Of a stretch of 64,000 nt of DNA, positions 17,309 to 52,284 are shown one piece after another. Every line of letters begins with the position of its first letter. Within the stretch, counting starts at the first letter, position 1. The stretch is from Thermoproteota archaeon (GTDB taxonomy: Archaea > Thermoproteota > EX4484-205 > JAAOZP01). The notes below the pieces were generated by a model that saw only the letters and a program-made list of their open reading frames with translations, was not told the origin of the DNA and searched no databases. The stretch lies in NCBI GenBank assembly GCA_049700215.1, contig JBNAVT010000002.1:41981-105980 (forward strand). The letters run 5' to 3'. Both the position numbers and the translations under genes were made by a program.

Positions 17309-18544
17309 CTAACGCTTCTTCCTCAGGAGACCGTTCGCCCTATCGATGGGATCCTGATATTTTGAAACCCTCCCGTTTAGAACATCCCTGTACCTTACGG
17401 CTGCACGGAGCTTAGCGGACTCGTATATGGCTTCCGCTATTGCTTTTGCCATCATCCCGTCCTCGCCGTCAACCTCCGGCCTTCTTCTTTTCTGAACAGC
17501 CTCAAGAAAATCGTAGCACTCCAGTGTAATCCCGTCTGTAAAACCATGTGGGAAAAGCCTGTTCTTCCCCTCTTCACCTATGCTTCTGAGGAATTCTTCT
17601 CTAAGCTCAAGCATGGTGCGCTGAGTTCCATCCTTAAGAATGAGCACAGCATTGTCGAAAGGACCGTGGAAGACATCACCCGAGTCGAGAAGACACCCTT
17701 CAGACCCATAGTAAACAACCTTCGTAAAAGAGTGGCCCGGCGCAGCCATAGTCCAGCTCCATGTCCCGACGAGACCGTTTTCAAAGCTTATTAGCGCAAC
17801 CCAGCTGTCCTCCACCTCGCTGTAAAAGGTTTCCCCCTGCTTATCGTGGGGCCATTTTTCAAACTGTCCTACGAAAGCGTAAACCCTGTCCACCTCCCCG
17901 AAGAAATATCTCATCGAGTCGCAGAAATGTGCTCCACTATCCATAGCCAGGCCTCCCCCGCTCAGGTTCCTCTCGACTCTCCAATGCCACTTCTTGGGCT
18001 TCAAGGGGTCGTTCCAAGAGGCGTGAATCGCGTAGAACATTCTGGGCTTGCCGATCAGCCTGGCCTCGTTAATCAGCCAGTGCATAGTCCTCTGGTTCAA
18101 TCCGCGGCGAATGTTCTCCGCCGTCGCGACAATCCTCCCATGCTTTCTCCCAGCAGCTATTATCATCTTGCTCGCCCTCAATGATACTCCAAGGGGTTTC
18201 TCAACCATCACATCCGCCCCAGACCTGATACACTCTATTGCAACCTTATGGTGTTCAGAATGCGGCGTACATATGTCGACGGCCCTCGGCCTAGCCTTCC
18301 TCAACATTTCCCTGGTGTCGAGGAAGACAGGGGGCCTGTAGCCGAGGAGCTTCTCAGCCTCGTCCGCGAAAGATTCAACAGCCTCCTTTGAAACATCGTT
18401 TAAGGCGACAAGCCTGAGTTTCCCAGGCTCCTTCTCGCTGATCCTTGCATAAGCCATCAAGTGTTCACGGGCTATTCCTCCGCAACCAGCTATCGCGAGT
18501 TTAACCGTCCCATCTCCTACCATAGTGGCTCTCCTGCTTAACAC
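17309..18544 (-). CDS. Gfo/Idh/MocA-family oxidoreductase
   Basis: 411 aa. KLAIAGCGGIAREHL...ICTPHSEHHKVAIECIRSGADVMVEKPL matches the family. Confidence 0.8.
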   Translation of the reverse strand: MLSRRATMVGDGTVKLAIAGCGGIAREHLMAYARISEKEPGKLRLVALNDVSKEAVESFADEAEKLLGYRPPVFLDTREMLRKARPRAVDICTPHSEHHKVAIECIRSGADVMVEKPLGVSLRASKMIIAAGRKHGRIVATAENIRRGLNQRTMHWLINEARLIGKPRMFYAIHASWNDPLKPKKWHWRVERNLSGGGLAMDSGAHFCDSMRYFFGEVDRVYAFVGQFEKWPHDKQGETFYSEVEDSWVALISFENGLVGTWSWTMAAPGHSFTKVVYYGSEGCLLDSGDVFHGPFDNAVLILKDGTQRTMLELREEFLRSIGEEGKNRLFPHGFTDGITLECYDFLEAVQKRRRPEVDGEDGMMAKAIAEAIYESAKLRAAVRYRDVLNGRVSKYQDPIDRANGLLRKKR

Positions 18545-19523: not shown

Positions 19524-22154
19524 ATGAACATATGCTCCATGGATTTTGGAAAATATGTTGCAGTATTGACCCTTCTAGCAACAGTAGCGCTTACCCAGCT
19601 GACGATGCCTGCTTTCGCTCAGCAAGTGCCAAACGGTGGTTGGCTGGATGAAATCGTTTTCTTCAAAGAAAGCGATGCAAGCAAGATGTTCGACATGATA
19701 GAGAAGGGTGAGGCGCATGAATGGCAGTGGACGGCCCCTGTAACTCTTATTGACAGGATAAAGGCTTCTGATAAGGTTGGATATGTTTCCTCATCAGGAA
19801 TCTTTTATGTGCTCGATGTGAATCCGTGTCCGTTTAGAAGCGGCTTTAACCCGTTTGTAAACGCGAAAATGAGAGAAGCGTTAAACTACATCGTGGATAG
19901 AGAGTATCTTGCTTACACCATTATGAAGGGTGCTGGGAGGCCGAAGTATACCATACTTGTCTCCAGTTTTCCGGATTATGGTCAGGTTATAGATGTTGCT
20001 AAAATAATTGAAAGCAAGTACAGGTTTAATCTCGATGCCGCTAAGGAGATAATCTACAAGGAAATGGCTGATATGGGGGCTGTTCTCAAAGATGGGAAAT
20101 GGTACTATGAAAACAAGGTTGTCACTATAAAATTCATCATAAGAATTGAAGATGCGAGGAGAGATATTGGTGATTTCATAGCTTCACAGCTTGAAAAGCT
20201 TGGTTTCATCGTAGACAGGCAGTATAAACCAGCATCGGAGGCCTTCCCCATTAGGTATGCTACTGACGCGCGCGATGGATTATGGCACCTCTACACCGGC
20301 GGGTATGAAGCAGGCTTCGACCAATCCGGAGACTTTTGGGGCTTCTTTGCAGGTGCCTACATAGAAACGGGTGCCGTCCATGACCCAGTCTTTTCAGAAA
20401 TTGCTAGAAGGCTTTCCACGGCTGACTATACTTCTTTAGAGGAGAAAATCAGCCTAATGAAGAAAGCATTGTTAATGTCGGTGGAAGACTCAACCTACGT
20501 CGGATTGGCTGACAGGCTTTCAATATTCATGGTTTCAAAGGATGTGGTGGCAGCATACCATCTTAGCGCCGGACCTTGGAGAATGCCGTGGAGCAGAACT
20601 GTTAGGCTTAAGGACAGAGTTGGCGGAACGATAAAAGTGGGTGAACAGGATCTTCTCGTAGAGGAGATGAATCCTGTTGCACTCGGCGGATGGGTCTGGG
20701 ATATGGCTGTCTACATGCCGACTCAAGACTACGGATTCATCGAGAATCCTTACACGGTTGCATTAATCCCATTGAGAGTTAAGGAGTACAGTGTTGAAGT
20801 GACTCAAGGAATCGCGATTAAACAAACGCCGGAAGTTAAAACGGTTGACCAAGTAAGAGTTCCTTCTGACGCTATTGCCGCATGGGATGCTGTAAACAAG
20901 AAGTATGTCAATGTCGGGGAGAACAAGTATGCTAAAGCCAAGGTGACTTTAGTGTACGACTCTCCCCTCGGTAAATATCACGATGGTACGGACATAACTT
21001 TAGCAGACTTCATGTTCTGGTTCGCCCTTTCCTTTGAAAGGACAAGTAGTTCCAGCAAGATTTACGACGAGTCTGCTGTACCCGGATTCATAGCCACAAT
21101 GCGGCAATTCATAGGTTTCAAAGTTATTCGTAGCAACCCGGTGACTGTGGAAGTCTATGTTAACATGACTCACGTCGAACCGACTCGTCTCGCTGACTGG
21201 GCTGCTCAACGCTTCACGCTATCGGGATTTCCGTACTTCCCGTGGCACGACCTTGCTGTTGCAATTCTCGCTAGACAGGATGGAAAGCTTGGTTTCAGCG
21301 CTCTTGAAGCTCGGTCTCTTGGATGTGAAAGAGTCAATTTCATGTATGGTCCAAGCATGGCAATACTAAACGAGTATCTTGATAAAGCGATAAAGGAAAA
21401 ATACGTGCCTGAATGGATAAAGGATTATGTTACTCCAGATGAAGCAGTGGCAAGATACCAGAAGCTTAAAGAGTTCTACAACAAATATAAGCACTTCTGG
21501 GTTGGTTGCGGGCCGTACTATTTATACTCCACTGATCCTGTGGGGAAGGTTGCGGTGTTAAAGGCTTTCAGAGAATACGTGTATAAGGCTGACAAATTTG
21601 ATTGGCTGCTAAAGTCATCTACTCCTGAAGCCTCTTTAAAGGTTCCTGAAAAGATTGTTCCAGGCATTGAGGCAAATATTACCGTAACCATCAGTTCAAT
21701 GGGAGAACCTTATCCAAGAAGCAATATAGAGAAGGTCATGTATCTCATAACAGATCCAGCAGGCAACATGCTTTTAAGCGGTATTGCGAGAGAAACTGCT
21801 ACCGAAGGACTTTACCAAATAAGGCTTAACGGGACTGAAACTTCAAAACTGCCTCCTGGCACGCATACGGTAACCGTATATGCGTTCAGCAATATTGTCG
21901 CAGTCCCGGGAAGTGGAGAAGCAACTATCGCAGTTATACCGCCTGCAAGCTACATAACGCTGGAGCTGAATAGGGTTAGGCAAGAGATGGAGGCCAGGCT
22001 GTCCGCAATAGAAGCCTTGAACACTCAGGTCTCCAATTTATCGTCTGAAGTAAACTCGTTAAAGAGTACTTTAAACATGGCTGTAGGGATAGGGGTTGTT
22101 GCGATAATAATTGCCGTAGTGGCAGTAGTCCTTAGTATTAGAAAGAAGCGATGA
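19524..22154 (+). CDS. ABC transporter substrate-binding protein, family 5 (oligopeptide/cello-oligosaccharide type), with C-terminal coiled coil and membrane anchor
   Basis: 876 aa. N-terminal signal peptide (VAVLTLLATVALTQLTMPAFA), family-5 SBP body, and a C-terminal segment ...LNTQVSNLSSEVNSLKSTLNMAVGIGVVAIIIAVVAVVLSIRKKR (coiled coil plus transmembrane anchor, as in archaeal SBPs). Confidence 0.85.
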   Translation: MNICSMDFGKYVAVLTLLATVALTQLTMPAFAQQVPNGGWLDEIVFFKESDASKMFDMIEKGEAHEWQWTAPVTLIDRIKASDKVGYVSSSGIFYVLDVNPCPFRSGFNPFVNAKMREALNYIVDREYLAYTIMKGAGRPKYTILVSSFPDYGQVIDVAKIIESKYRFNLDAAKEIIYKEMADMGAVLKDGKWYYENKVVTIKFIIRIEDARRDIGDFIASQLEKLGFIVDRQYKPASEAFPIRYATDARDGLWHLYTGGYEAGFDQSGDFWGFFAGAYIETGAVHDPVFSEIARRLSTADYTSLEEKISLMKKALLMSVEDSTYVGLADRLSIFMVSKDVVAAYHLSAGPWRMPWSRTVRLKDRVGGTIKVGEQDLLVEEMNPVALGGWVWDMAVYMPTQDYGFIENPYTVALIPLRVKEYSVEVTQGIAIKQTPEVKTVDQVRVPSDAIAAWDAVNKKYVNVGENKYAKAKVTLVYDSPLGKYHDGTDITLADFMFWFALSFERTSSSSKIYDESAVPGFIATMRQFIGFKVIRSNPVTVEVYVNMTHVEPTRLADWAAQRFTLSGFPYFPWHDLAVAILARQDGKLGFSALEARSLGCERVNFMYGPSMAILNEYLDKAIKEKYVPEWIKDYVTPDEAVARYQKLKEFYNKYKHFWVGCGPYYLYSTDPVGKVAVLKAFREYVYKADKFDWLLKSSTPEASLKVPEKIVPGIEANITVTISSMGEPYPRSNIEKVMYLITDPAGNMLLSGIARETATEGLYQIRLNGTETSKLPPGTHTVTVYAFSNIVAVPGSGEATIAVIPPASYITLELNRVRQEMEARLSAIEALNTQVSNLSSEVNSLKSTLNMAVGIGVVAIIIAVVAVVLSIRKKR

Positions 22155-22163
22155 AAAAGCAAG

Positions 22164-23270
22164 ATGAGTCCCTCCTCTTTTTCTGGCTTTTCTAGAAGTG
22201 AATTCGAAAGGTCTTTAATCTACTTTGTAAAAAGGCTTATTGCAATACTTATATCAGTAACGATAACGTGTTATCTGACCATACTCATAGCTGAAATGGG
22301 TGGGTTTGTAGATACTGTAGTAATATCCCAGCTGAAGGATGAGATTCGAAACATGGTTAGAACCAGCCTAGAATATGCTTCACTATCTCCACAGCAGCAG
22401 GAGGAGATAATGGCAATAAAGTTGAATCTAACCATAAAGGAACGGGGTCTGGACACACCTTTCTACGTAAGGTCACTCATATACCTTAAGAATGCTCTAA
22501 CATTAGATCTTGGCAGGGCGAACATACTTGTCAGCGACAGTGGTTCCAGAAGGGTGCAGGCAATAATATTTGAAAGGCTTCCTTACACTATTCTACTCTT
22601 CACAACAGCCACTGTTTTAGGCTTCTTCATAAACATATTATTCGGATTATACTTAGCTCGCCACAGAGGTTCCCTCATAGATAGGATCATGGTTGGGTTT
22701 ACATTCCTCTCATCCATACCCGGATGGTTTTACGGAATAATCTTCATAATGGTTTTTGCAATGTATCTCGGGGTTCTTCCTTACGGAGGTCTCGTCAGCA
22801 TCCCTCCTCCCAGTGACCCGCTGCTCTATGCACTGGACATTTTGAAACACGCTATTCTCCCGATTTTTTCATGGCTTTTCTCAGGACTTTGGCTCGGGGT
22901 CTATGCGAACCGGAACTTTTTTCTTATATTCTCAACACACGGGTATGTGACTGTTGCTGATGCGAAGGGGCTTCCGGAGAGAAGAATTCTTAGTAAATAC
23001 ATTATAAAGCCTGCTCTACCGACAATCGTCACGAACCTATCTCTAGGAATAATCGGTTCATGGATGGGTGCAATGGTTACTGAAAGCGTGTTCAACTGGC
23101 CCGGTATAGGAAGCCTAACTTACAGGGCTATAAACCTCAAGGACACGCCAATAATAGTCGGTACAACAGTTATCTATGCGTATCTTCTAGGTTTAACTAT
23201 GCTGATTCTTGATATAGTCTACAGTATTCTTGATCCGAGAATAAGAGCTAGCTTGTCAGGAGGGTATTGA
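22164..23270 (+). CDS. ABC transporter permease (DppB/OppB-like)
   Basis: 368 aa, 6 transmembrane segments, family-5 permease architecture, immediately downstream of the SBP. Confidence 0.85.
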   Translation: MSPSSFSGFSRSEFERSLIYFVKRLIAILISVTITCYLTILIAEMGGFVDTVVISQLKDEIRNMVRTSLEYASLSPQQQEEIMAIKLNLTIKERGLDTPFYVRSLIYLKNALTLDLGRANILVSDSGSRRVQAIIFERLPYTILLFTTATVLGFFINILFGLYLARHRGSLIDRIMVGFTFLSSIPGWFYGIIFIMVFAMYLGVLPYGGLVSIPPPSDPLLYALDILKHAILPIFSWLFSGLWLGVYANRNFFLIFSTHGYVTVADAKGLPERRILSKYIIKPALPTIVTNLSLGIIGSWMGAMVTESVFNWPGIGSLTYRAINLKDTPIIVGTTVIYAYLLGLTMLILDIVYSILDPRIRASLSGGY

Positions 23271-23271
23271 A

Positions 23272-24693
23272 TTGTCTAAAATCAAATCTGCATCAAGGCG
23301 TTACATGGTGTTAAGTGAACTATTTCGCTCCAAGAGTGCGATAATCGGGTTTTCTATAATAATTCTAGTTTCAATATTATCCGTTTATGCGGTGATCGTT
23401 TATCCTCCTTCTGTCGTCACTAGAATATGGAGTGATCCAGAGTATTGGAGAGATAAACCAGTATTAGCACTACCGGAATGGTATAGCTCCCTCTTAGGTC
23501 TCAACCTCCCTCCTAACATAGTTTTAGATACTAGGGAGCAAGATAGTAGGATCTTGAAATACACGGTTTCTTTGAACGAGCATACGGAGCATGAAATCAC
23601 GTTTACGTTTAACTATGATTATGACGCTTTTCCGAGTGAAATGAATGCTTATGTTCATGCTAAATTCAAAACGAATCCTTTAATTGTCATGACTTTTATT
23701 CGACCTGACGGGAGAGAAATAAACCTGTGGTCCGGCACTTTAACTCAGAATGAGAGTTTCATAATTTTGTCAAACTCTCCAATCGCTAAGAAAAATGTTC
23801 AAGAGTATTTTTTCAGTACTTTTGGGGAATACGTCTCTGATCCAACTACGGAAGTAATTTTATTCGCTGTGGAAAAACGAGGTATGGATAAACCGAACAC
23901 GGCTGAAATTCTTAAGAGTGCAGGTAAAAGTTACAAGATTAAGATATGTGGAACGTTCTTTGAAAAAGACTCTAACCTTGACGTCAAGCTTATAATCTAT
24001 GGTAAAATATGGGGAATGCTTGGAACAGACGATAGAAGAAGAGACCTACTAATACCTATAATATGGGGTGCCCCGATTGCCTTAAGCTTCGGGATATCTC
24101 TTTCAATTATAACGTCTTTGCTACACATGTCCTTAGGCTCGATCAGCGCTTGGTTCGGGGGGAAAGTGGACTTCATAATCCAGAAGATAACTGAAATCTA
24201 CATGACGGTGCCATTTCTATCAGTACTCGTGATGATCTCAATGTTCTACAAGGTCAGTATAGTTGCCATATTTATTTCTGTAATAATTCTCAGCCTATTT
24301 GGCGGCGGTGTGAAGAGTTCGAGAGCTCTTGCTTTGCAGCTTAAGCAGCAACCCTTCGTAGAGGCTGCAAAAGTCTACGGGGCTAGCGGGCTTCGAATAG
24401 TCTTAAGATACATAATTTTCGCTATGGCTCCAACACTTGTACCCGGAATTATATCCTCCATACCAGGGTTTGTATTCTTAGAGGCTGCCCTAGCCTTCCT
24501 CGGATTAGGAGACCCGGTTCTTCCGACATGGGGTAAAACTATTAACGAAGCGAATTCAGCAGGTGCTTTGTACAACTTTTACTGGTGGTGGATATTGCCT
24601 CCTGTCATAATGCTTGTCTCAATATCCTTGGCTTTTTCTTTAATAGGTTATTCCCTTGATAAAATTGTAAATCCCAAGCTGAGAGAAATATAG
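23272..24693 (+). CDS. ABC transporter permease (DppC/OppC-like) with large N-terminal extracytoplasmic domain
   Basis: 473 aa. N-terminal transmembrane segment, ~200-aa loop, then a permease core. Confidence 0.85.
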   Translation: MSKIKSASRRYMVLSELFRSKSAIIGFSIIILVSILSVYAVIVYPPSVVTRIWSDPEYWRDKPVLALPEWYSSLLGLNLPPNIVLDTREQDSRILKYTVSLNEHTEHEITFTFNYDYDAFPSEMNAYVHAKFKTNPLIVMTFIRPDGREINLWSGTLTQNESFIILSNSPIAKKNVQEYFFSTFGEYVSDPTTEVILFAVEKRGMDKPNTAEILKSAGKSYKIKICGTFFEKDSNLDVKLIIYGKIWGMLGTDDRRRDLLIPIIWGAPIALSFGISLSIITSLLHMSLGSISAWFGGKVDFIIQKITEIYMTVPFLSVLVMISMFYKVSIVAIFISVIILSLFGGGVKSSRALALQLKQQPFVEAAKVYGASGLRIVLRYIIFAMAPTLVPGIISSIPGFVFLEAALAFLGLGDPVLPTWGKTINEANSAGALYNFYWWWILPPVIMLVSISLAFSLIGYSLDKIVNPKLREI

Positions 24694-24695
24694 CT

Positions 24696-25697
24696 TTAGA
24701 CTACTCCTTTAGAGTTTTTCTGGCTGTAGAGCCAGCATTTGACTTTATGGAGTTCAGACACCTCTACTTCAGGAGGCTCCTCTCTCCTGCAAACATTCAT
24801 GGCGTGTGGGCACCTCGGGTGAAACCTGCAACCAGGTGGGGGATCAAGAAGACTCGGAGGCTCTCCTGGAGGTGTTTTCCTACGTCTTTTCACGTTTAAA
24901 GGATCCAAGTCTGGAATGGCTTCGAACAAGGCTTTTGTGTAAGGATGTAACGGTTCTCTTAAAATCGTCTGTGTATCTGCTTTTTCAACAATATGGCCTC
25001 CATACATTATGAATATTTTATCTGAAAAATATCTGGTGGTGGACAAGTCATGAGTAATATATATAAAGCTTATTTTCTTGTTCTCCTGAAGCTCTCTCAG
25101 TAAAGTCAATATCTCAATCCTTACAGATGCGTCCAGCATAGAAACAGGTTCATCTGCGACGATTAATTCGGGCTGGAGTATGAGAGCTCTTGCAATAGCT
25201 ACTCTCTGCGCTTGGCCTCCGCTTATCATATGGGGATACTTTGGCAAGAAATCTTCAGCAGGTAAAAGCCTGACGTTTTCAAGCGCTTTATAAACCATCT
25301 CACCCCTACTTCTTTCATCACTGATCTTATGGATTTTCAAGGGTTCTTCAAGTATTTCTCGTATCGTTAAGAAGTATGGGAGGCTTCCGAATGGGTCTTG
25401 CTGAATCAACTGTGCCGCCCTCCTGTACCACATAAGGTTTTTTGCATCCAAGTGAGTTATGTCTTTACCGTTAAATACTAAAGTCCCCTGTGTCGGCTTG
25501 TAAAGTCTGAGTATAGTTTTGCCTAAAGTAGTTTTTCCGCTTCCAGATTCGCCTACAAGCGATACTGCCTCCCCCCTACTGAGTTTGAAGTTGACCCCGT
25601 CAACAGCCTTCACTGCCAGGGATTTGGAGAATAAGCCACGTTTGATTTCAAAGTATTTCCGTAGATCTATCACTTTTAACAGGGCATCGTCCATCAA
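24696..25697 (-). CDS. ABC transporter ATP-binding protein (OppF/DppF-like) with C-terminal oligopeptide-type extension
   Basis: 333 aa. Walker A GESGSGKTT, signature [15 protein letters not shown], Walker B LIVADEP. The C-terminal 56 aa are identical to the neighbouring ATPase. Confidence 0.9.
   Translation of the reverse strand: MMDDALLKVIDLRKYFEIKRGLFSKSLAVKAVDGVNFKLSRGEAVSLVGESGSGKTTLGKTILRLYKPTQGTLVFNGKDITHLDAKNLMWYRRAAQLIQQDPFGSLPYFLTIREILEEPLKIHKISDERSRGEMVYKALENVRLLPAEDFLPKYPHMISGGQAQRVAIARALILQPELIVADEPVSMLDASVRIEILTLLRELQENKKISFIYITHDLSTTRYFSDKIFIMYGGHIVEKADTQTILREPLHPYTKALFEAIPDLDPLNVKRRRKTPPGEPPSLLDPPPGCRFHPRCPHAMNVCRREEPPEVEVSELHKVKCWLYSQKNSKGVV
24703..24870. repeat. 168-bp exact direct repeat, copy 1, encoding the C-terminus of ATPase 24696..25697
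   Basis: actcctttagagtttttctggctgtagagccagcatttgac...ggaggctctcctgga is identical base-for-base to 25708..25875. Confidence 0.9.
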
Positions 25698-26683
25698 CTA
25701 TCAGCCACTCCTTTAGAGTTTTTCTGGCTGTAGAGCCAGCATTTGACTTTATGGAGTTCAGACACCTCTACTTCAGGAGGCTCCTCTCTCCTGCAAACAT
25801 TCATGGCGTGTGGGCACCTCGGGTGAAACCTGCAACCAGGTGGGGGATCAAGAAGACTCGGAGGCTCTCCTGGAATATGACCGAGCTTCTTGGTGGAGCG
25901 TAATGTAGGTACACTTGCCAAGAGTAATTTAGCATATGGGTGTAGAGGCTCGCTTAGAAAAGCTTCAAGGCTCGTTAACTCTACTATTTTTCCTGCATAC
26001 ATTATGGCGATCCTGTCAGAAAGCTCCGTGCTCAGCGCAATATCGTGCGTAATAAATATGTAGCTGATTTTAAGCTCAGACTTTATATCCTTCAATATGT
26101 TCATTATGTTCGCCTGAGTTATAACATCTAAGGCTGAAGTCGGTTCGTCGAGAATAACTATTTCTGGATGCGTTATCAAAGCCATTGCTATTAAAACCCT
26201 TTGCTGCATGCCTCCACTAAGCTCGAAAGGATACCTGTCTATAAAAGAACTGCTTATTCCGACAAGCGATAGAAGTTCCGATGCTTTTTCAATTGCGTCT
26301 TTTTCAGGAATACCTTTATGGATCATAAGTGGTTCTGCTACCTGTTCCCCTACTTTAAGCAAAGGATTTAAGGAGTCCATCGCTCCCTGAAAAACGATCG
26401 ACACTTTCTTCCATCTGATTTTTTTCTTAAAATCATCATCTCTCAGACTCATAATATCCATACCATCGATAAATATGCTTCCCTCATACTTTGCTATATT
26501 CTTTGGGAGCAACCTCATTAGGGCTCTAGCCAGAGAGCTTTTACCACATCCGGATTCTCCAACTAAAGAAACTGTTTCTCCTTTCCTAAGGTTAAAACTT
26601 ATATCATCTACAGCTTTCACTGTTCCTTTTCTAGTACTATAATATAGATAAAGCCTTTTTACCTCCATTAATGAGTCCAACAT
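25694..26683 (-). CDS. ABC transporter ATP-binding protein (OppD/DppD-like)
   Basis: 329 aa. Walker A GESGCGKSS, signature LSGGMQQRVLIAMAL, Walker B IVILDEP. Overlaps the downstream ATPase gene by 4 nt. Confidence 0.9.
   Translation of the reverse strand: MLDSLMEVKRLYLYYSTRKGTVKAVDDISFNLRKGETVSLVGESGCGKSSLARALMRLLPKNIAKYEGSIFIDGMDIMSLRDDDFKKKIRWKKVSIVFQGAMDSLNPLLKVGEQVAEPLMIHKGIPEKDAIEKASELLSLVGISSSFIDRYPFELSGGMQQRVLIAMALITHPEIVILDEPTSALDVITQANIMNILKDIKSELKISYIFITHDIALSTELSDRIAIMYAGKIVELTSLEAFLSEPLHPYAKLLLASVPTLRSTKKLGHIPGEPPSLLDPPPGCRFHPRCPHAMNVCRREEPPEVEVSELHKVKCWLYSQKNSKGVADS
25708..25875. repeat. 168-bp exact direct repeat, copy 2, encoding the C-terminus of ATPase 25694..26683
   Basis: Identical to 24703..24870. 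Flanking bases differ on both sides. Confidence 0.9.
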
Positions 26684-26735: not shown

Positions 26736-26850
26736 GAAGAGATGTATAAATGCTAAGCTTAATCTGCAATACCGTTTATACGGTTTTGCGATAGACTTAG
26801 TAGTCATGAATGTCGAGAATCCTTGTTTATTTTCTAGACGAGCTAACTTA

Positions 26851-27685
26851 GAGCATGTTTCAAAACCCCTTCTTCCTCCCATTCGCCCGCTTGTAGCATA
26901 TCAGCGCGCACGCCAAGTTCAGGAACGCCTGGTATGTACACTGCAACCTCTCGTACCTGACCTTGAGCCTCCGGTACTGGTTGATCCACGCCTGCGCCCT
27001 CTCCACAGGCCAGAGCTTCCTATACCTCCTCGGCCTCCGCCTCCTGTTCAGCAGGGGGATTATGCCCCTCTTCCTTAGTTCCCTCCTCAGCGGCTCCGAG
27101 TCGTACGCCTTGTCTCCCTTGAGCTTTAGCGGCCTTCCCACTCCATGCCTTATCGGAGGTATCGCGTCGACCAGCCTCAGGGCTACTGTAGAGTCGTGCG
27201 CGTTCGCTCCTGTAACTATTGCAGCGAGAGGGAGCCCCCTCGAGTTGGCTATGACGTGCCTCTTCGTGCCGTTCTTGGCCCTGTCCGTCGGATTGGGGCC
27301 TGTCGAGCGCCCCCTTTTAGAGCCTGCACAGGAGAGCTGTCTATCATCGCAAGCCTCATGCTTGGCTCGGCCCTATCGAGCATCTCCTTCCAGACCCTCT
27401 TCCATATGCCCTTTCGCTGCCATTCTCTAAGCCTCCTCCAGCAGCTAGGTCCGGAACTGTACTCCTTTGGGAGGGCATTCCAGGGGCAGCCGTTTAAGAG
27501 CACGTAGAGTATTCCGAGCATCGCTGTCCTGTTCGGCACAGGTGGCCTGCCGGGTGTTCCAGGGGGCTTCTGCTTCGGAAGCATGGGTTCTATTATCTCC
27601 CAAAGATCGTCCGTCAGAACCTTCTCGGGTCTAGCCATGGGGAGAGGAGGTCAGAAGGCTTGGATAAGGGTTTTGAAACACGCTC
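26851..27685 (-). mobile_element. IS5-family insertion sequence (IS427/IS1031-like), ~835 bp, with imperfect terminal inverted repeats and TTA target duplication
   Basis: Left end gagcatgtttcaaaaccc versus reverse complement of right end gagcgtgtttcaaaaccc (17/18). Flanking TTA at 26848-26850 and 27686-27688. Encodes a two-frame IS5-type transposase. Confidence 0.75.
26860..27638 (-). CDS. IS5-family DDE transposase, orfA/orfB in two frames (programmed -1 frameshift type, or inactivated)
   Basis: orfA 27249..27638 reads LTDDLWEIIEPMLP...NRTAMLGILYVLLNGCPWNALPKEY...CWRRLREWQRKGIWKRVW (DUF4096/IS5 N-terminus). orfB 26860..27141 plus upstream extension reads ...GRPLKLKGDKAYDSEPLRRELRKRGIIPLL (IS5 C-terminal DDE region). 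Confidence 0.75.
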
Positions 27686-27690
27686 TTAGT

Positions 27691-28122
27691 TTAAGTCTGC
27701 ATATAAAACTGCTCTTTAAAAAGCCTTATTTTCTTGAAACACTCTTCCTCCTCGCCGCAGTCTGCAACAAGCTTTTCAAACGGGCAGACATCGTTCTTCA
27801 TCCTGTTTAGGATTTCGGGAACAAGTTTATCATACTCGACGCTTATACTCTTCTCCTTCAAAGCGGCTAAGCCCTTCCTACTTACTACTTCCGCGTACAC
27901 TTCAGCAATATTAGCACGCCGGCAGAGCATTGCTGCTGCTCTGCCAACAACCCTGTCGGCAACAGCAGCCCCTGATAACTCTACACCATGGTTTTCAATA
28001 GCTTCAACAAGCCCCACGACGCCGTATTTCCTAGTCGCATGGATGAAAGCTCCTTGCTTAACTATAACTAGGCTGAAACCACCGTTTTTCAAAATCCTCT
28101 TAGCCGTCTCCAAGCCATTCAT
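27691..28122 (-). CDS. Hypothetical protein (possibly DUF1893-like)
   Basis: 143-aa ORF. ...DRVVGRAAAMLC... segment. The stop lies 5 bp from the IS right end. Family assignment is tentative. Confidence 0.4.
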   Translation of the reverse strand: MNGLETAKRILKNGGFSLVIVKQGAFIHATRKYGVVGLVEAIENHGVELSGAAVADRVVGRAAAMLCRRANIAEVYAEVVSRKGLAALKEKSISVEYDKLVPEILNRMKNDVCPFEKLVADCGEEEECFKKIRLFKEQFYMQT

Positions 28123-28251
28123 TTCCTCGCAGCCGTATTGTGTCTGCCAAGAGTTATATAAGCCTGTTGTTCTATTTTGGTCTCGTGTTTTGGGAACTAT
28201 TTCTGCAGCGCCTTAGTAAAATTTTTAAGTCTACCATCCTACGCACGGCTT

Positions 28252-29397
28252 ATGAAGTATAGGCGATTCGGGAAACTGGACTGGCAGGTGTCCGCCCTAG
28301 GCTTCGGATGCATGAGGCTCCCTATAATAGGCAACGATCATTCTAAGGTTGATGAGCCTGAGGCCATCAGGATGATAAGGTACGCTATAGACCATGGTGT
28401 CAACTATGTTGACACCGCGTACCCGTATCACGGGGGGAATGGTGAGATCGTCGTCGGCAAGGCTTTAAAGGATGGCTACAGGGAGAGGATTAGGCTCGCA
28501 ACCAAGATGCCTATCTGGAATATTAATTCTAGGGAGGATATGGACAGGATCTTCGAGGAGCAGCTTAAGAAGCTTCAGACGGAATACGTGGATTTTTACC
28601 TTCTCCACGCCCTGAATAAAGACACTTGGCTTAAGATTAAAAACCTGAATGTTTTCGACTGGGCTGAAAGGGTTGTTTCCGAGGACAGGATAAAGTATCT
28701 TGGCTTCAGCTTCCACGACGACTACGAGGTTTTCAAGGAGATTATAGACGCGTATGACAAATGGACCCTTTGCCAAATACAGTATAACTATGAGAATGAG
28801 GATGTTCAAGCCGGGACAAGGGGGTTGAAATACGCTGCTGGGAAAGGGCTTGCCGTGGTTATAATGGAGCCTCTTTTAGGAGGGGCTTTAGCCAATCCGC
28901 CCCCTGCTGTTAAGCAGATCTGGGATGAGGCTGGTAAGGATCCTGTGGAGATGGCGCTGCAGTGGCTTTGGAACAAGCCTGAGGTCTCAGTGGTCCTAAG
29001 CGGCATGAGCACGATGGAGCAGGTTAAGCGAAACATTGAGTTTGCCTCAAGATCAGGTGTCGGGCTGCTTACTGACGAGGATCTTAAGCTTATAGCTAGA
29101 GTACACGTGAAGTACAGGGAGCTCCGCCCGATTCCTTGCACGAGATGCGGCTACTGCATGCCGTGTCCGAACGGCGTTGATATCCCTGAGAACTTTGAGG
29201 TTTACAATCATGGTGTAGCGTATAGCACGATTGGCGCAGCCCGATGGATTTACAACAATAATATTCCTGCTGAGAGGCGGGCGAGCGCATGCGTGGGATG
29301 CAGGACCTGCGAGGAGAAGTGTCCCCAGAAGATTAAGATCAGCGAATGGATGCAGAGGATCGATAAGGAATTAAGATTCCAGCCGCCTGGAACGTGA
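28252..29397 (+). CDS. Aldo/keto reductase fused to C-terminal 4Fe-4S ferredoxin-type domain
   Basis: AKR N-terminus MKYRRFGKLDWQVSALGFGCMRL...NYVDTAYPYHGG. C-terminal CTRCGYCMPCPNG...CVGCRTCEEKCP gives two Cys clusters. The start was set at the internal ATG at 28252. Confidence 0.8.
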   Translation: MKYRRFGKLDWQVSALGFGCMRLPIIGNDHSKVDEPEAIRMIRYAIDHGVNYVDTAYPYHGGNGEIVVGKALKDGYRERIRLATKMPIWNINSREDMDRIFEEQLKKLQTEYVDFYLLHALNKDTWLKIKNLNVFDWAERVVSEDRIKYLGFSFHDDYEVFKEIIDAYDKWTLCQIQYNYENEDVQAGTRGLKYAAGKGLAVVIMEPLLGGALANPPPAVKQIWDEAGKDPVEMALQWLWNKPEVSVVLSGMSTMEQVKRNIEFASRSGVGLLTDEDLKLIARVHVKYRELRPIPCTRCGYCMPCPNGVDIPENFEVYNHGVAYSTIGAARWIYNNNIPAERRASACVGCRTCEEKCPQKIKISEWMQRIDKELRFQPPGT

Positions 29398-29464
29398 CGC
29401 TTTAAAACCTGAAACCGGCATCCGGTGCAGTTTATATATTGCCCAGGGTTTTCAATACTGCGAC

Positions 29465-32340
29465 ATGTATAGGGATGAGGCGGTGGTTTGGAGTCCCGGG
29501 GATTCTGAGAAAATTGCTGGTTTTCTGAGGCGCGTATCCCCAGGTTTCACCGAGAACGCTCAGGCCAGGGCCTGGGTTGAACCTGACGGCAGGATCCTTC
29601 TTCAAATAGTGTTCATGAAAGAGGGTGTTGCAACCAGGATGCTTGAAACATTTGTCGTTAAGGATGATGGTGGGAACATCGTCAGGGTTGAGCCTCCTGA
29701 GGCGACTGGTGAAGCGGGGGAGAGCCAGCTGGAAGGCGGTTCCCAGAATCCCTGTTTAAAAACCCTTGGGGATCGCCTCAGGGTTCTCAACTGGCATCAT
29801 AGTAATTCTCTGGCTGCTGTTGCTAAGAGGCTGGTGGGCCTCGAGGTTTTTTCCACACTTCCTTCTAAAGAGGTTGACTGGGCGAGCAGTGTTTTCAACC
29901 AGGTTTTCCCCGAGTCCCCTTTAACCCTCAGGCCCTACGGGTATTTTGATAAGGAGACGAGAGAGTACGTTATAACTCGGCCAGACACGCCTACGCCCTG
30001 GATAAACTATCTCGGCCAAGGAGGCTACGGCGGAATAATATCTAACACTGCTGGAGGTTTCTCGTTCGACCGTGACCCCCGTAACCGTCGGGTTACAAGG
30101 TACCGGTACAACGCTATTCCACTGGATCAGCCTGGGCACTATATTTATCTTAGGGATGATGAAACCGGGGAGTTCTGGAGTCCAACTTGGCAGCCTGTTA
30201 AGAACAGCCTTGAATGGTATGAGTGTAGGCATGGCGCAGGCTATACTCGTATAAGCAGCAGGCGTAACGGGGTTGAGGCCTCAATACTCTTCTTCATCCC
30301 ACCTAATCCCCCCTACGGGGAGTGTCCTGTCGAGCTTCATGTGCTACGCTTAAAAAACACTAGCGCCAGCGTTAAGAGCCTGAGCATATGGTCCTACGAG
30401 GAGCTGTCATACTGGGATGCTATCGTTGACACGACTAACCTGGATTGAGGTCAGCAAATAGTTTCAAGCTCCTACAGGAATGGTGTTATTGTCACGGGGG
30501 TTCAGTTTAAACCTACTAGAACGTTCCTCGCAAGCAGCCTCGCCCCAGATGGTTACGACACTAGCCGCGAGGTTTTCGTGGGGAGCTACGGCGACCTCTC
30601 CAGGCCGCAGGCGGTTGTCAGCGGCAAGCCGGGTTACAGTATTGCTTCACGCGGCAACAGTATTGCTTCCCTCAGACATTTTCTGGAGCTGAAGCCCCGG
30701 GAGGAGGAGACAATAGTCTACGTGCTTGGCGTGACTGATAAGCCGAGTCTAATACCTGAAACCGTTGAACACTATAGTGTCGTAGAAAACGTTGAGAAGG
30801 CTTTTAAAGAGCTTGGAGAAAACTGGGGCGAATACCTTGGGAAGCTAACTGTTGAAACACCGGATGAGGAGATGAACGCTATGATAAACTTCTGGAACGC
30901 TGTTCAGTGCTGTGCCAACCTCTACTGGTCTAGATTCGTCTCCCTGTACGATACTGGTTTAGGAAGAGGCATGGGGACGCGTGACTCTGCTCAAGACACT
31001 TTGGGCACTGTGCATAATGATCCTCAGCATGCACGCAGGGTTCTGAAAATGCTCTGGAAACTACAGTTTAAAGATGGGCACACCTGGCACCAGGTTTTCC
31101 CGCTTACTGGCGAGGGGGGGCCTGGGCATGCTGCAGAATCTCCTGAGAAACCCCAGTGGTTTAGCGACGACCACCTTTGGCTCATCTTAGCGACCTGCAG
31201 CTATCTCCGTGAAACGGGTGACTTCACACTCCTGGATGAGAAGCTGCCATACCAGGATAGTGACGCGGAGGAGACTGTTTGGGAACACGTAGAGAGGGCG
31301 GTAGGCTTCACCTGCAGGAAAAGAGGATTACACGGCCTGCCGCTGATCGGCTTCGCAGACTGGGATGACACTATGAATCTTGACCATGGTTCTGAGAAGG
31401 CTGAAAGCGTCTGGACGGGGATGCTTTTCTGCAGGGTTATGCTTGACCTTGCGGAGCTTTGCAAGAAGCTTGGGCGCGTGGAGAAGATGATGGAGTTTGA
31501 AAAGCTTCACAGGGAGATGGCTGAAACAATAAACCGGGTTTCATGGGATGGTGAATGGTATGCTAGGGCTTACGACGACGAGGGCAGGCCTGTCGGCATT
31601 AAGGGTAAGAAGTATCACTGGATAAGTCTTATTCCGCAGGCTTGGTCGGCTATTGCTGAGCTCGGCGAAGAAGAGAGGTCGAGGAAAGCCTTGGAGAGTG
31701 CACGCCGGTTTTTAAACAGCCTTTAGGATTAAGGCTGATGAGAGACCCGTTTAACAGCAGTAAGACGGATGAGGATTCAGTGGATGTTGAGAGCCTGAGG
31801 CGTTTCGGCGGAACAGCAACATACCCGCCTGGGCTCAAGGAGAATGGTGGAATATTCAACCATGCTAACACTTGGGTTATTGTTGCAGCCGCCAAGCTCG
31901 GGCTTGGAGACCTCGCCTACCAGTTTTACAGCCAGATAATGCCGCTTAGACGTAGAGATACGGATGCTCTTAAGACTGAGCCCTACGTGTATTCTCAGAA
32001 TCTGGCTGCCCCGGAGCATCCTGAGTATGGGCGTGCAAGAAACTCGTGGCTCACCGGCACAGCCTCATGGGTTTACGTGGCTGCGACACAATGGATTCTC
32101 GGCATACGCCCCACCTTCGAAGGGTTGAAAATATCTCCATGCATACCGGAATCCTGGAGCGGCTTCAAGGCTCGAAGGGTCTTCAGAGGAGTGACGTACA
32201 ATATTCTCGTTAAACGTGTTGGAAAGGGTAACAAGGTTTCGCTCAAGGTGAATAGTAAGCATGTTCCCGGAGAAGTTGTTCCGCTTCCAATCGAGGATGT
32301 GGCGAGCGTGGAAGTAGAGGTCGCGCTCGGAGGGCAATAG
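29465..32340 (+). pseudogene. GH94 cellobiose/cellodextrin phosphorylase, disrupted by one in-frame TGA (~30446) and one frameshift (~31720)
   Basis: Three ORFs cover the N-terminal domain (RPYGYFDKETREYVITRPDTPTPWINYLG), the catalytic (alpha/alpha)6 region (GRGMGTRDSAQDTLG) and the C-terminal domain (NGGIFNHANTWVI...). ORF1 and ORF2 are in the same frame and separated by TGA (...TTNLD*GQQIV...). ORF2 to ORF3 needs a 1-nt correction near aacagcc/tttagg. Confidence 0.75.
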
Positions 32341-50016: not shown

Positions 50017-52284
50017 TTGAGCGATAAGAGGGAGGGTTTTCAAAACGATGCGGGAAGAAAGAAGGATCCGCCTGACTATGTTTACCTGCGTGTCGCTGAG
50101 GCCCAGCCTACTGACGTGGGACGGGGGTACGCTAGGATAGATCCTGAGGTTGCGAAGCTTCTGAATCTTTCACCTGGGGACGCTATAGAGATCGTTGGCA
50201 GAAGGAAGACTTATGCCCTCGTGTGGCCTGCGTCAGCCAAGGACAGGGGCCTAGGCCTGATCAGGATAGACGGATACACGAGGGAGAATGTCGGCGTCAG
50301 CCTAGACGACAAGGTTAGGATCAGAAAGGTAACGGCTAGGTATGCTACTACTGTTGTTCTGGCGCACACCGAGCAGCCTAGGATGGTTAACGGCGAGGAG
50401 TTTGTGAAAAGCATAATGATAGGCCGGATAATAAACAGGGGTGACATTATTCCGGTGAGGATAATGGGCAAGATTGTTCAGCTAGTTGTCGTCTCCTACC
50501 AGCCTGCTGCTGAAGCAGTTATCGTTACCGAGGACACTGTTGTTAAGATCAGCGAGAAAATATACCAGATTAAGAAGCTTCTCCCAAGGGTTACCTACGA
50601 GGATATAGGCGGCTTGGAGGAGGCTATACAGAAGATCAGGGAGATGGTTGAGCTCCCCCTGAGGCACCCGGAGCTTTTCGACAGGCTGGGGATAGAGGCT
50701 CCGAAGGGTATTCTCCTCTACGGTCCGCCCGGTACTGGCAAGACCCTGCTGGCGAAAGCCGTGGCGAACGAGACCAATGCGCACTTCATAAGCATAAGCG
50801 GGCCTGAGATAATGAGCAAGTACTATGGTGAAAGCGAGCAGAGGCTGAGGGAGATATTCAAGGAGGCTGAGGAGAATTCTCCAAGCATAGTCTTCATAGA
50901 TGAGCTTGACTCCATAGCTCCAAAGAGGGAGGATGTTACTGGAGAGGTTGAGAAGAGGGTTGTCGCGCAGCTTCTCTCCCTGATGGACGGTTTGCAGACT
51001 CGTGGAAAGGTTGTGGTAATAGGCTGTACGAACAGGGTTAACGCGATAGACCCTGCTCTCCGCAGGCCGGGCAGGTTCGACAGGGAGATAGAGATAGGCG
51101 TGCCCGATAAGAAGGCGAGGCTGGAGATACTTCAGATCCATATAAGGGGTATGCCGCTCTCCGACGACGTTGACCTTAAAAGGCTGGCTGAGCTAACTCC
51201 CGGTTTCGTCGGCGCTGACCTAGCGGCCCTAGCTAAGGAGGCAGCATTAAGATGCTTAAGGGAAGTGCTTCCCGAGATAGACCTTGAAACCGAGGTCATT
51301 CCGATAGAGGTTCTCAGCAAGCTCGTGGTCAGGATGAAGCATTTCATGGATGCTTTGAAAGAGATAGAGCCATCCGCGTTAAGAGAAATAATGGTTGAAA
51401 GCCCTAATGTGCACTGGGATGATATCGGTGGCCTTGAAGACGTTAAGAGGGAGCTGATAACCTCGATAGAGTGGCCCCTAAGGTTCCCGGAGCTTTTCAA
51501 GAAGCTTAACATTAGGCAGCCGAAGGGTATTCTCCTCTACGGTCCGCCCGGTACTGGCAAGACCCTGCTGGCGAAAGCCTTGGCGACTGAGAGCGAGGCC
51601 AACTTCATAAGCATCAAGGGTCCAGAGCTGCTTTCAAAATGGGTCGGCGAGTCTGAGAGGGGCATTAGAGAAGTCTTTAGGAAGGCTAGGCAGGTTGCCC
51701 CCTGCATAATCTTCTTCGACGAGATTGATTCAATCGCGCCCGTCAGGGGTAGGGATGTTAGCAGCGACGTTACCGAGAGGGTTGTCAGCCAGCTTCTCAC
51801 AGAGATGGATGGGTTGCAGGATCTCAGGGGAGTCATAGTCATAGGTGCGACTAACAGGCCTGACATAATTGACCCTGCTCTGCTGAGGGCTGGAAGGTTC
51901 GATAAGCTTATAGGCTTAAGCTGGCCTGATAGAGAGACCCGCAAGAAAATATTCCAGATACATTTAAGGGGGAAGCCTATAGCGCCTGACGTGAACATCG
52001 ATGAGCTGGCCTCGATGACTGAAGGCTTCTCCGGGGCTGACATAGCCCAATCGTGCAACGACGCCGGCCTTATAGCGATAAAAGAGTTGCTGGAGATGTC
52101 TAGCGACGAGGAGAAGGTTATGAGGATGACTGAGAAGCTAGTTATTCAAAAGAGGCACCTGATGGAGGCAATAACCAAGATAAACATCCCGTCTCCAGAG
52201 GAGCGCAGGGCCTACGAGCTCATGATGTCGAAGTTCGCTGGCACAGCAAAGTCGACAATAATGGCTTCGCCAACACTGGTTTAA
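50017..52284 (+). CDS. cdc48: CDC48/VCP-type AAA+ ATPase
   Basis: 755 aa. N-domain plus two AAA cassettes, each with [18 protein letters not shown] Walker A and second-region-of-homology motifs. Confidence 0.95.

What the first reader, a model, noticed from the sequence alone, without database searches (positions are those of the whole stretch)
24703..25875. Identical 168-bp segments form the 3' ends of the two adjacent ABC ATPase genes
24703..24870 and 25708..25875 are identical at every base. Each encodes the last 56 aa (GEPPSLLDPPPGCRFHPRCPHAMNVCRREEPPEVEVSELHKVKCWLYSQKNSKGV) of a different ATPase (OppF-like and OppD-like). The upstream ATPase cores are clearly divergent. Perfect identity over 168 bp between paralogues that otherwise differ implies very recent gene conversion or template-switch repair. 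It also gives a substrate for a 1005-bp deletion that would fuse the two ATPases. The Cys/His-rich C-terminal extension is the oligopeptide-ABC-type tail and may bind metal.
Basis: seen in the sequence. Interest (0 to 1): 0.55.

Follow-up and report, generated by a model that had tools for sequence, protein, structure and literature searches.

The report
Gene-converted Fe-S tails of paired ATPases
Two neighbouring, otherwise very different transporter ATPase genes of a hot-spring-type archaeon end in the same 168 bases because their iron-sulfur-binding tails keep copying each other; this ordinary process (gene conversion) seems not to have been reported for these genes.

Summary
They lie in frame at the 3' ends of the adjacent OppF-like and OppD-like genes. 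Outside the tails the two proteins are about 38-40% identical.

It is neither an assembly artefact nor a one-off event. Two other assemblies of the same population carry the same repeat. Every related genome that holds both genes (OppD 86-93% identical) has tails 97.6-100% identical within the genome. Between genomes the tails differ by 12-23%, with up to 16 synonymous codon changes in 44 codons. That is concerted evolution by repeated gene conversion.

More distant archaeal relatives show every stage, from 100% to about 50% tail identity, with partial tracts. Sixty-four unrelated Opp/Dpp loci show none.

The converted unit carries all four cysteines that ligate the [4Fe-4S] cluster in E. coli DppD and DppF.

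Recombination between the copies would delete OppF (1004 bp), not fuse the ATPases. One relative's contig has exactly that structure, either a real deletion or an assembler shortcut.

Verdict: a new example of a known process, of moderate interest.

The parts
24703..24870 (-). Repeat copy 1: the 3' end of the OppF-like gene. It encodes the C-terminal [4Fe-4S]-type module, from PGEPPS through the four Cys to KGV.
   Evidence: Exact 168-nt identity with 25707-25874. It lies in the C-terminal half of the oligo_HPY domain and beyond. The Cys align with the DppD ligands.
25707..25874 (-). Repeat copy 2: the 3' end of the OppD-like gene, encoding the same module. Its last bases (AAAGGAG) lie about 14 nt upstream of the OppF ATG and could serve as its ribosome-binding site.
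   Evidence: The ribosome-binding-site reading is inferred from the sequence only.
24696..25697 (-). OppF-like ABC ATPase gene, 333 aa from a TTG start. The likely start is the ATG one codon later, which overlaps the OppD stop (TGATG).
   Evidence: ORF list. Pfam ABC_tran 4.6e-31 and oligo_HPY 5.9e-21. Called as 332 aa in L015.
25694..26683 (-). OppD-like ABC ATPase gene, 329 aa.
   Evidence: ORF list. Pfam ABC_tran 9.9e-32 and oligo_HPY 1.9e-19. Best solved relatives are M. tuberculosis OppD, T. tengcongensis DppD 4FWI and E. coli OppD/DppD.
24871..25706 (-). Unique 836-nt segment between the copies: the OppF body plus the last three codons and stop of OppD. Repeat-mediated recombination would remove this segment together with one repeat copy.
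   Evidence: L020 lacks the orthologous segment.
19524..24693 (+). The rest of the transporter: solute-binding protein (19524-22154) and two permeases (22164-23270, 23272-24693). They converge on the ATPase pair, and the second permease ends 2 nt from the OppF stop.
   Evidence: ORFs. Pfam SBP_bac_5 and BPD_transp_1.

Best explanation
The two 168-nt copies are the product of repeated non-reciprocal homologous recombination (intrachromosomal gene conversion). It acts between the 3' ends of the tandem, translationally coupled OppD-like and OppF-like genes.

The D/F duplication is ancient: the bodies are 35-44% identical in every lineage. Both paralogues end in the same kind of [4Fe-4S]-binding module, whose motif PG(E/A)PPSLxxPPxGCRFxPRCP is highly conserved. 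I infer that this motif supplies enough DNA similarity to seed recombination. Once a tract has been homogenised, its identity makes further conversion easier.

The tract is bounded upstream by an unalignable linker (KKLGHI versus RRRKTP) and downstream by the gene ends. As a result, both ATPases of the transporter carry the same Fe-S module, which evolves as one unit within a genome and diverges between genomes.

Crossover outcomes would delete OppF and are presumably removed by selection.

Shown: the identity, its boundaries, the within- versus between-genome pattern, its recurrence in other lineages, and the correspondence to the Fe-S ligands.

Inferred: the molecular pathway (double-strand-break repair or template switching), seeding by the conserved motif, and neutrality.
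For: (1) There is exact 168-nt identity with abrupt boundaries between genes whose bodies are 48.5% identical in DNA.

(2) Two further assemblies of the same population (L015 from ENA, SPAdes, coverage 3.7; L016 from GCA_964543825.1) are 99.9% identical but carry 4-10 SNPs elsewhere. Both have the same perfect repeat.

(3) All eight complete D-F loci of close relatives have tails 97.6-100% identical over 163-167 nt within the genome. Between genomes the tails differ by 12-23%, at least as much as the bodies do (9-21%).

(4) In a 156-nt core, 47 columns vary among eight genomes. In 42 of them D equals F in every genome, and this pattern includes a 3-nt indel.

(5) Over 44 codons there are 0-1 synonymous differences within genomes, against up to 16 synonymous and 8 non-synonymous differences between genomes.

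(6) Short-read contigs break inside the tail: L001 starts with a 55-nt copy of its own OppF tail, L017, L024 and L025 end there, and four of the twelve closest OppD homologues are truncated there.

(7) Deeper relatives show graded states. Thermofilaceae L112 has 97.4% identity over 151 nt with the same 5' boundary. L109-L111, three assemblies, have 88% over 146 nt. Bathyarchaeota L115 is unconverted at 57%.

(8) In 26 same-contig D/F pairs the bodies are 35-44% identical but the tails range from 50% to 100%. In 10 pairs the partner is the nearest tail. Partial tracts exist, and tails are D-type in some lineages and F-type in others. The pairing was validated in 5 of 5 checked cases.

(9) None of 64 unrelated two-ATPase Opp/Dpp loci, nor a Caldarchaeum locus, has such a repeat.
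Against: No reads were available. Perfect identity, as opposed to 98-99%, could be sharpened by bubble-popping in short-read assemblers. The recombination pathway and the direction of transfer are inferred from sequence patterns only. GC3 of the tail is not consistently raised, so there is no independent signature of biased conversion. Neutrality versus selection for identical tails is unresolved.
Confidence: 0.9

Rival explanations
1. Assembly artefact: two similar but distinct tails were collapsed into one consensus, or the repeat was created by misassembly.
For: The assemblies are short-read metagenome assemblies, one at only 3.7x coverage. Contigs of relatives often break in this region. 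This shows that the repeat troubles assemblers, which can also pop bubbles between near-identical copies.
Against: The repeat appears in three assemblies of this population and in at least eight other loci from different samples, made with both SPAdes-style and MEGAHIT-style assemblers. Several loci resolve 1-15 differences between the copies, so assemblers are not forcing identity. Breaks at a k-mer's length inside the tail are what a true repeat longer than k produces. Even with collapse, the copies would have to be nearly identical against a 50% background.
Confidence: 0.03
2. Nucleotide-level purifying selection: an RNA element, regulatory site or extreme codon constraint embedded in the tail keeps both copies the same without any recombination.
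For: The protein motif is highly conserved in the family. The end of the OppD copy may double as the ribosome-binding site for OppF.
Against: The tails diverge by 12-23% between genomes, with up to 16 synonymous codon changes in 44 codons. That is as fast as or faster than the gene bodies. There is no Rfam match anywhere in the window. Unconverted relatives function with tails that are only 50-60% identical.
Confidence: 0.02
3. A single very recent conversion or template-switch event peculiar to this genome.
For: Perfect identity over 168 nt in the window.
Against: The same state occurs in every close relative, each with its own lineage-specific tail sequence, and recurs in distant lineages. 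At least one event is needed per lineage after divergence. The absence of intermediate states in the close clade implies that the conversion rate is well above the substitution rate.
Confidence: 0.03
4. Conversion is the mechanism, but identity is kept by selection. An identical Fe-S module in both ATPases is advantageous, for example for symmetric packing, a shared maturation or redox partner, or co-adaptation. Converted genotypes would then be favoured rather than neutral.
For: In E. coli DppBCDF, each ATPase's [4Fe-4S] cluster is needed for complex stability (PMC12136057). A genome-wide survey found that long-lasting concerted evolution is concentrated in subunits of the same complex and proposed gene balance or co-evolution as the reason (PMC6053082). 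Homogenisation recurs in several lineages, and in the close clade the tracts cover the ligand-bearing module from the same 5' boundary to the gene ends.
Against: Many related transporters keep tails only 50-60% identical, and intermediate, decaying states exist (88% in L109). This argues against a strong requirement. The tract boundaries coincide with the points where DNA homology starts and ends, as a neutral homology-limited process predicts.
Confidence: 0.15

Closest known systems
Concerted evolution of prokaryotic paralogues by gene conversion. Examples are tufA/tufB in enterobacteria and the archaeal chaperonin subunits (both from my own knowledge), and the 26 long-lasting cases of Wang & Chen 2018, PMC6053082, including the tandem mtrA-1/mtrA-2 pair.
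   Same: Paralogues within a genome are more alike than orthologues between genomes. Synonymous sites are homogenised. The genes encode subunits of one complex. The process recurs over deep divergence.
   Different: Here only a roughly 55-codon C-terminal module is homogenised, while the ATPase cores stay at 35-44% identity. The genes are the two ATPases of an Opp/Dpp-type ABC importer, which that paper never mentions (no occurrence of 'ABC', 'transporter' or 'oligopeptide'). No paper in the searched library links gene conversion with oppD/oppF or dppD/dppF.
[4Fe-4S]-binding C-terminal domains of E. coli DppD and DppF (PDB 8Z1V and others; PMC12136057), T. tengcongensis DppD (4FWI) and M. tuberculosis OppD (8J5Q).
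   Same: The architecture is ABC_tran plus oligo_HPY. The four Cys of the tail align with DppD Cys284, 290, 297 and 315. Both ATPases of the pair carry the motif, as in E. coli.
   Different: In E. coli the two tails are diverged paralogous sequences. Here they are identical at the DNA level. Cluster binding has not been shown for this protein.
Direct-repeat-mediated deletion between tandem paralogues (unequal or intrachromosomal crossover).
   Same: Two 168-nt direct copies lie 1004 nt apart. A relative's contig, L020, has exactly one copy and lacks the OppF body.
   Different: The product is loss of OppF, not a D-F fusion. Whether L020 is a real deletion or an assembler skipping the loop cannot be decided without reads.

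Membership tests
Opp/Dpp-type ABC importer ATPase (OppD/OppF, DppD/DppF) | An ABC_tran nucleotide-binding domain followed by the oligo_HPY C-terminal region. | tested here: met
   Both genes match PF00005 (E 1e-31) and PF08352 (E 1e-19 to 1e-21), above the curated cut-offs. The best solved relatives are OppD and DppD chains.
Opp/Dpp-type ABC importer ATPase (OppD/OppF, DppD/DppF) | Encoded next to a family-5 solute-binding protein and two BPD_transp_1 permeases. | tested here: met
   The SBP_bac_5 protein and two permeases lie at 19524-24693. The ATPase pair is inverted relative to them in this clade and collinear in distant relatives.
Opp/Dpp-type ABC importer ATPase (OppD/OppF, DppD/DppF) | The substrate is peptides. 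| not testable with these tools
   The neighbours are a GH94 phosphorylase and sugar-type oxidoreductases. From my own knowledge, archaeal Opp-family systems often carry oligosaccharides, so the 'Opp' name describes the family only.
[4Fe-4S] C-terminal domain of DppD/DppF-type ATPases | Four Cys ligands in the pattern GCxFxxRC-x6-C-x17-C, aligned with the known ligands. | tested here: met
   The tail Cys align with E. coli DppD C284, C290, C297 and C315. They are invariant in 26 homologues.
[4Fe-4S] C-terminal domain of DppD/DppF-type ATPases | Actual binding of an iron-sulfur cluster. | not testable with these tools
   This needs spectroscopy or a structure of the purified protein.
Concerted evolution by gene conversion | Paralogous segments are more similar within a genome than orthologous segments are between genomes. 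| tested here: met
   There are 0-2 differences within genomes in the common tract, against 20-42 between clades. In 42 of 47 variable columns, D equals F in all eight genomes.
Concerted evolution by gene conversion | Homogenisation includes synonymous sites. | tested here: met
   There are 0-1 synonymous codon differences within genomes, against 8-16 between clades, over 44 codons.
Concerted evolution by gene conversion | The duplication predates the lineages compared, so the pattern is not independent recent duplication. | tested here: met
   D and F bodies are 35-44% identical in every lineage, while orthologous bodies are 60-93% identical.
Concerted evolution by gene conversion | Mosaic structure with discrete tract boundaries. 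| tested here: met
   Both ends are abrupt. The 5' boundary sits at the same codon (about 269-272) in the window clade and in Thermofilaceae. Partial tracts occur in other pairs.
Collapsed or chimeric assembly | The feature is confined to one assembly or one assembler and disappears in independent data. | tested here: not met
   It is present in three assemblies of this population and in more than eight other loci, with resolvable differences between copies in several. Read-level confirmation was not possible.
Mobile or dispersed repeat element (MITE or IS fragment) | Further copies elsewhere, terminal repeats, and no dependence on reading frame. | tested here: not met
   There are only two copies in 64 kb. 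Both are in frame and homologous to oligo_HPY.

The most novel reading that the evidence does not exclude
The identity may be more than a passive by-product of homology. In that reading, gene conversion serves as a co-evolution device that keeps the two [4Fe-4S] modules of a heterodimeric ABC ATPase pair identical, for symmetric assembly or for a shared redox or maturation partner. The same repeat would then act as a recombination switch that can delete OppF, as in L020, or duplicate it, giving population-level variation in transporter composition.
Probability: 0.12. Interest if true: 0.65.

Novelty: new member of a known kind. Interest (0 to 1): 0.42.

Why it matters
It adds a clean, well-bounded case of domain-restricted concerted evolution in archaea. 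A genome-wide survey called long-lasting concerted evolution in prokaryotes very rare and did not mention ABC transporters (PMC6053082).

The converted unit is a defined functional module, the Fe-S cluster domain needed for complex stability in E. coli Dpp. Natural series of identical, partly converted and diverged tails therefore exist for asking whether the two modules must match.

There are practical consequences too. The repeat breaks short-read contigs and may cause OppF to be missed. It will also mislead phylogenies or orthology calls built on full-length OppD/OppF sequences.

Tried and rejected
(a) Chance or low-complexity repeat. Rejected: the sequence is complex coding DNA with random-level identity on both sides.

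(b) General property of Opp/Dpp D-F pairs. Rejected: none of 64 diverse metagenome loci has such a repeat. They show only 70-90% similarity over short stretches at the Walker A and signature motifs. A Caldarchaeum locus has none either.

(c) GC-biased conversion signature. Tail GC3 is higher than body GC3 in the window (0.48-0.50 against 0.37-0.42) but not consistently in L026, L109 or L115. With about 55 codons this is inconclusive.

(d) Embedded RNA gene. There is no Rfam match at gathering threshold and no tRNA in the window.

(e) The genome-contig scan did not find the source genome, only an 81%-identical short contig, which still proved informative.

It therefore gave a background set rather than close relatives.

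(g) Literature searches for gene conversion with oppD/oppF or dppD/dppF found nothing relevant.

(h) Whether L020 is a true deletion could not be decided. Its retained copy is D-type up to the stop codon. A parent like L021 would need a junction within the last 7 nt, whereas a parent with fully homogenised tails allows either a real deletion or an assembler skipping the loop.
Full report
**1. The observation**

The window holds an exact 168-nt direct repeat at 24703-24870 and 25707-25874, 1004 nt apart.

Identity ends abruptly on both sides. At the same offset the next 800 nt are 17-35% identical, which is the random level.

Both copies lie on the minus strand, in the same frame, at the 3' ends of two adjacent genes:
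- 25694..26683, 329 aa, OppD-like
- 24696..25697, 333 aa, OppF-like

Each protein has ABC_tran plus the oligo_HPY C-terminal region. The copies encode PGEPPSLLDPPPGCRFHPRCPHAMNVCRREEPPEVEVSELHKVKCWLYSQKNSKGV. OppF then continues with V-stop and OppD with ADS-stop.

Upstream of the tails the genes are 48.5% identical in DNA and about 38-40% in protein. No other long exact repeat exists in the 64 kb.

**2. Not an artefact**

The same OppD protein is encoded on two other records. One is an ENA SPAdes contig at 3.7x coverage (L015). The other is a contig of MAG GCA_964543825.1 (L016). They differ from the window by 4 and 10 SNPs in 10.6 kb, and both carry the same perfect 168-nt repeat.

Relatives assembled from other samples with other assemblers show the same feature, sometimes with 1-15 resolved differences between the copies. 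Assemblers are therefore not imposing the identity.

Short-read contigs also break here:
- L001, an 81%-identical relative, begins with 55 nt that exactly repeat the end of its own OppF tail. This is the signature of a de Bruijn graph break at k=55 in a true repeat.
- L017, L024 and L025 end inside or just after a tail.
- Four of the twelve closest OppD homologues are truncated inside the tail.

Only reads could exclude that perfect identity is a polished version of about 99% identity.

**3. What the relatives show**

OppD homologues that are 86-93% identical come from Thermoproteota MAGs and hot-spring-type metagenomes. Loci were fetched for eight of them.

Every locus holding both genes has tails that are nearly identical within the genome:

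| Locus | Tail identity within the genome |
|---|---|
| L018, L019 | 163 nt at 100% |
| L023 | 166 nt at 99.4% |
| L021, L022 | 166 nt at 97.6% (one SNP, one 3-nt indel) |
| L026-L028 | 167 nt at 98.8-99.4% |
| L017 | 120 nt at 100%, up to the contig end |

The tail sequence itself differs between genomes. The window differs from L026 at 20-21 of 167 sites. It differs from the L018/L021/L023 group at 35-42 of 164-167 sites. That is at least as much as the bodies diverge: 9-10.6% and 13.6-20% respectively.

In a 156-nt core, 47 columns vary among eight genomes. In 42 of them the D and F copies agree in every genome.

Over 44 codons there are 0-1 synonymous differences within genomes. Between clades there are 8-16 synonymous and 5-8 non-synonymous differences.

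This pattern defines concerted evolution by gene conversion. The relatives' identity is within genomes, not between them, so nucleotide-level purifying selection is excluded.

All close genomes are nearly homogenised while lineages have diverged by up to 22%. Conversion must therefore be frequent relative to substitution. One site is polymorphic within a species-level population: the F copy reads T in L026 and L028 and C in L027, and the D copy always reads C. This looks like a mutation not yet converted, or one just converted.

**4. Extent of the phenomenon**

Deeper orthologues, with OppD 63-66% identical, show graded states:

| Locus | Lineage | Tail identity |
|---|---|---|
| L112-L114 | Thermofilaceae | 97.4% over 151 nt, starting at the same codon as in the window |
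| L109-L111 | Thermoprotei, three independent assemblies | 88.4% over 146 nt |
| L115-L117 | Bathyarchaeota B26-2 | unconverted, 57% in DNA, 28 of 57 aa |

I then paired the top OppD and OppF homologues that lie on the same contig.

In 26 pairs the bodies are uniformly 35-44% identical, while tails range from 50% to 100%. In 10 pairs the partner is the nearest of all tails.

Several pairs show partial tracts. P0050/P0170 and P0023/P0161 are identical only through the first three Cys. P0072/P0208 is identical for about 34 residues.

Unconverted lineages define a D-type distal tail (…DLGxGH… or …PPPYEYK…HEGKR) and an F-type distal tail (…EEPPEFEVEPxH…). The window clade and Thermofilaceae carry F-type tails in both genes. 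The P0016/P0018 lineage carries the D-type 'DLGGGH' in both. From this I infer transfers in both directions, and therefore independent events.

The phenomenon is not general. None of 64 diverse two-ATPase Opp/Dpp loci from metagenomes has it, and a Caldarchaeum locus does not either.

**5. What the converted unit is**

The tail aligns with the C-terminal domains of T. tengcongensis DppD (4FWI), E. coli OppD/DppD/DppF and M. tuberculosis OppD.

Its four Cys align with E. coli DppD Cys284, 290, 297 and 315. These ligate a [4Fe-4S] cluster. DppF has an equivalent set, and Cys-to-Ser mutation of the ligand set in either subunit disassembles DppBCDF (PMC12136057). The four Cys are invariant in 26 homologues.

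Each repeat copy therefore encodes the whole ligand-bearing module. Cluster binding itself is untested.

**6. Mechanism**

I commit to homology-dependent, non-reciprocal recombination between the 3' ends of tandem paralogues.

Shown:
- The tract begins where the two genes become alignable, at PG(E/A)PPS, after an unalignable linker. It ends at or a few codons before the stop codons.
- Even unconverted pairs keep about 80% DNA identity over about 49 nt at the PPxGCRFHPRCP motif.

Inferred:
- This conserved stretch seeds strand invasion or template switching.
- A homogenised tract then promotes further events.
- Crossover products are selected against because they remove OppF.
- From my own knowledge, crenarchaeal recombination tolerates short homologies and produces short patches, which fits. 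PMC3367456 was listed but I did not read it.

Whether identity is neutral or favoured is open. The existence of decayed and unconverted relatives argues against a strict requirement.

**7. The deletion**

Recombination between the copies would remove 1004 bp, namely one copy plus the entire OppF body. It would leave OppD with OppF's last residue. It would not fuse the ATPases.

L020 (GCA_038827035.1) is 99.7-99.85% identical to L021/L022 on both sides, and its OppD is followed directly by the permease. That is exactly this product. Without reads it may be a real deletion variant or an assembler that skipped the loop.

**8. Comparison with what is known, and novelty**

Gene conversion between prokaryotic paralogues is well established. 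A genome-wide survey found 26 long-lasting cases, mostly subunits of one complex. It called such cases very rare, and its text mentions no ABC transporter (PMC6053082).

Searches linking gene conversion with oppD/oppF or dppD/dppF found nothing relevant.

I rate this a new member of a known kind. It is a clean, recurrent, domain-restricted example affecting the Fe-S modules of an ABC ATPase pair. Interest is moderate. It is instructive for molecular evolution and for annotation or assembly practice, but it is not mechanistically surprising.

**9. Context**

The ATPase pair is inverted relative to the binding-protein and permease genes in this clade, and collinear in distant relatives. Neighbouring genes include GH94 phosphorylase, aldo-keto reductase and GFO/IDH oxidoreductase. 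They hint at an oligosaccharide substrate rather than a peptide substrate.

Noticed in passing
window 26845-27691: An IS-like element of about 847 bp with 24-nt terminal inverted repeats (26845-26868 and 27668-27691, 92% complementary). It carries a DUF4096 (IS4/5-family transposase N-terminus) ORF at 27249..27638 on the minus strand. Its GC is 0.54 against 0.40-0.44 around it. It sits about 160 bp upstream of the OppD start. It is present in L015/L016 and absent from relatives L017-L023.
   Followed up: partly
window 29465-32340 (+): The GH94 (cellobiose/chitobiose-phosphorylase-type) gene is split into three ORFs by an in-frame stop near 30446 and a frameshift near 31730. Relatives encode an intact protein of 957-963 aa. 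It is either a pseudogene or consensus errors in a low-coverage assembly.
   Followed up: partly
window 19524-26683; L109, L112, L115: In the window clade the OppD-OppF pair is inverted and converges on the binding-protein and permease genes, with stop codons 2 nt apart. In more distant orthologous operons all five genes are collinear. This indicates an inversion of the ATPase cassette in this clade.
   Followed up: no
window 50701-50808 and 51520-51627 (inside the Cdc48-like gene 50017..52284 +): A 108-nt direct repeat at 88% identity links the Walker A regions ([18 protein letters not shown]) of the D1 and D2 AAA domains of one Cdc48/VCP-like gene. This is unusually high DNA similarity for ancient internal paralogous domains. 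It may be another small conversion tract or just strong motif and codon conservation.
   Followed up: no
L020 (GCA_038827035.1, JAWBNZ010000015.1) 3804-3970: This contig has OppD followed directly by the permease, and OppF is absent. It has exactly the structure expected from recombination between the two tail copies. Sister assemblies L021/L022, with an identical OppD, keep OppF.
   Followed up: partly
window 17309-18544, 28177-32340: The transporter's neighbours are sugar-metabolism-type genes: a GFO/IDH/MocA oxidoreductase, an aldo-keto reductase fused to a 4Fe-4S dicluster domain, and GH94. The binding protein is unusually large at 876 aa. The 'oligopeptide' label may be wrong for the substrate.
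   Followed up: no
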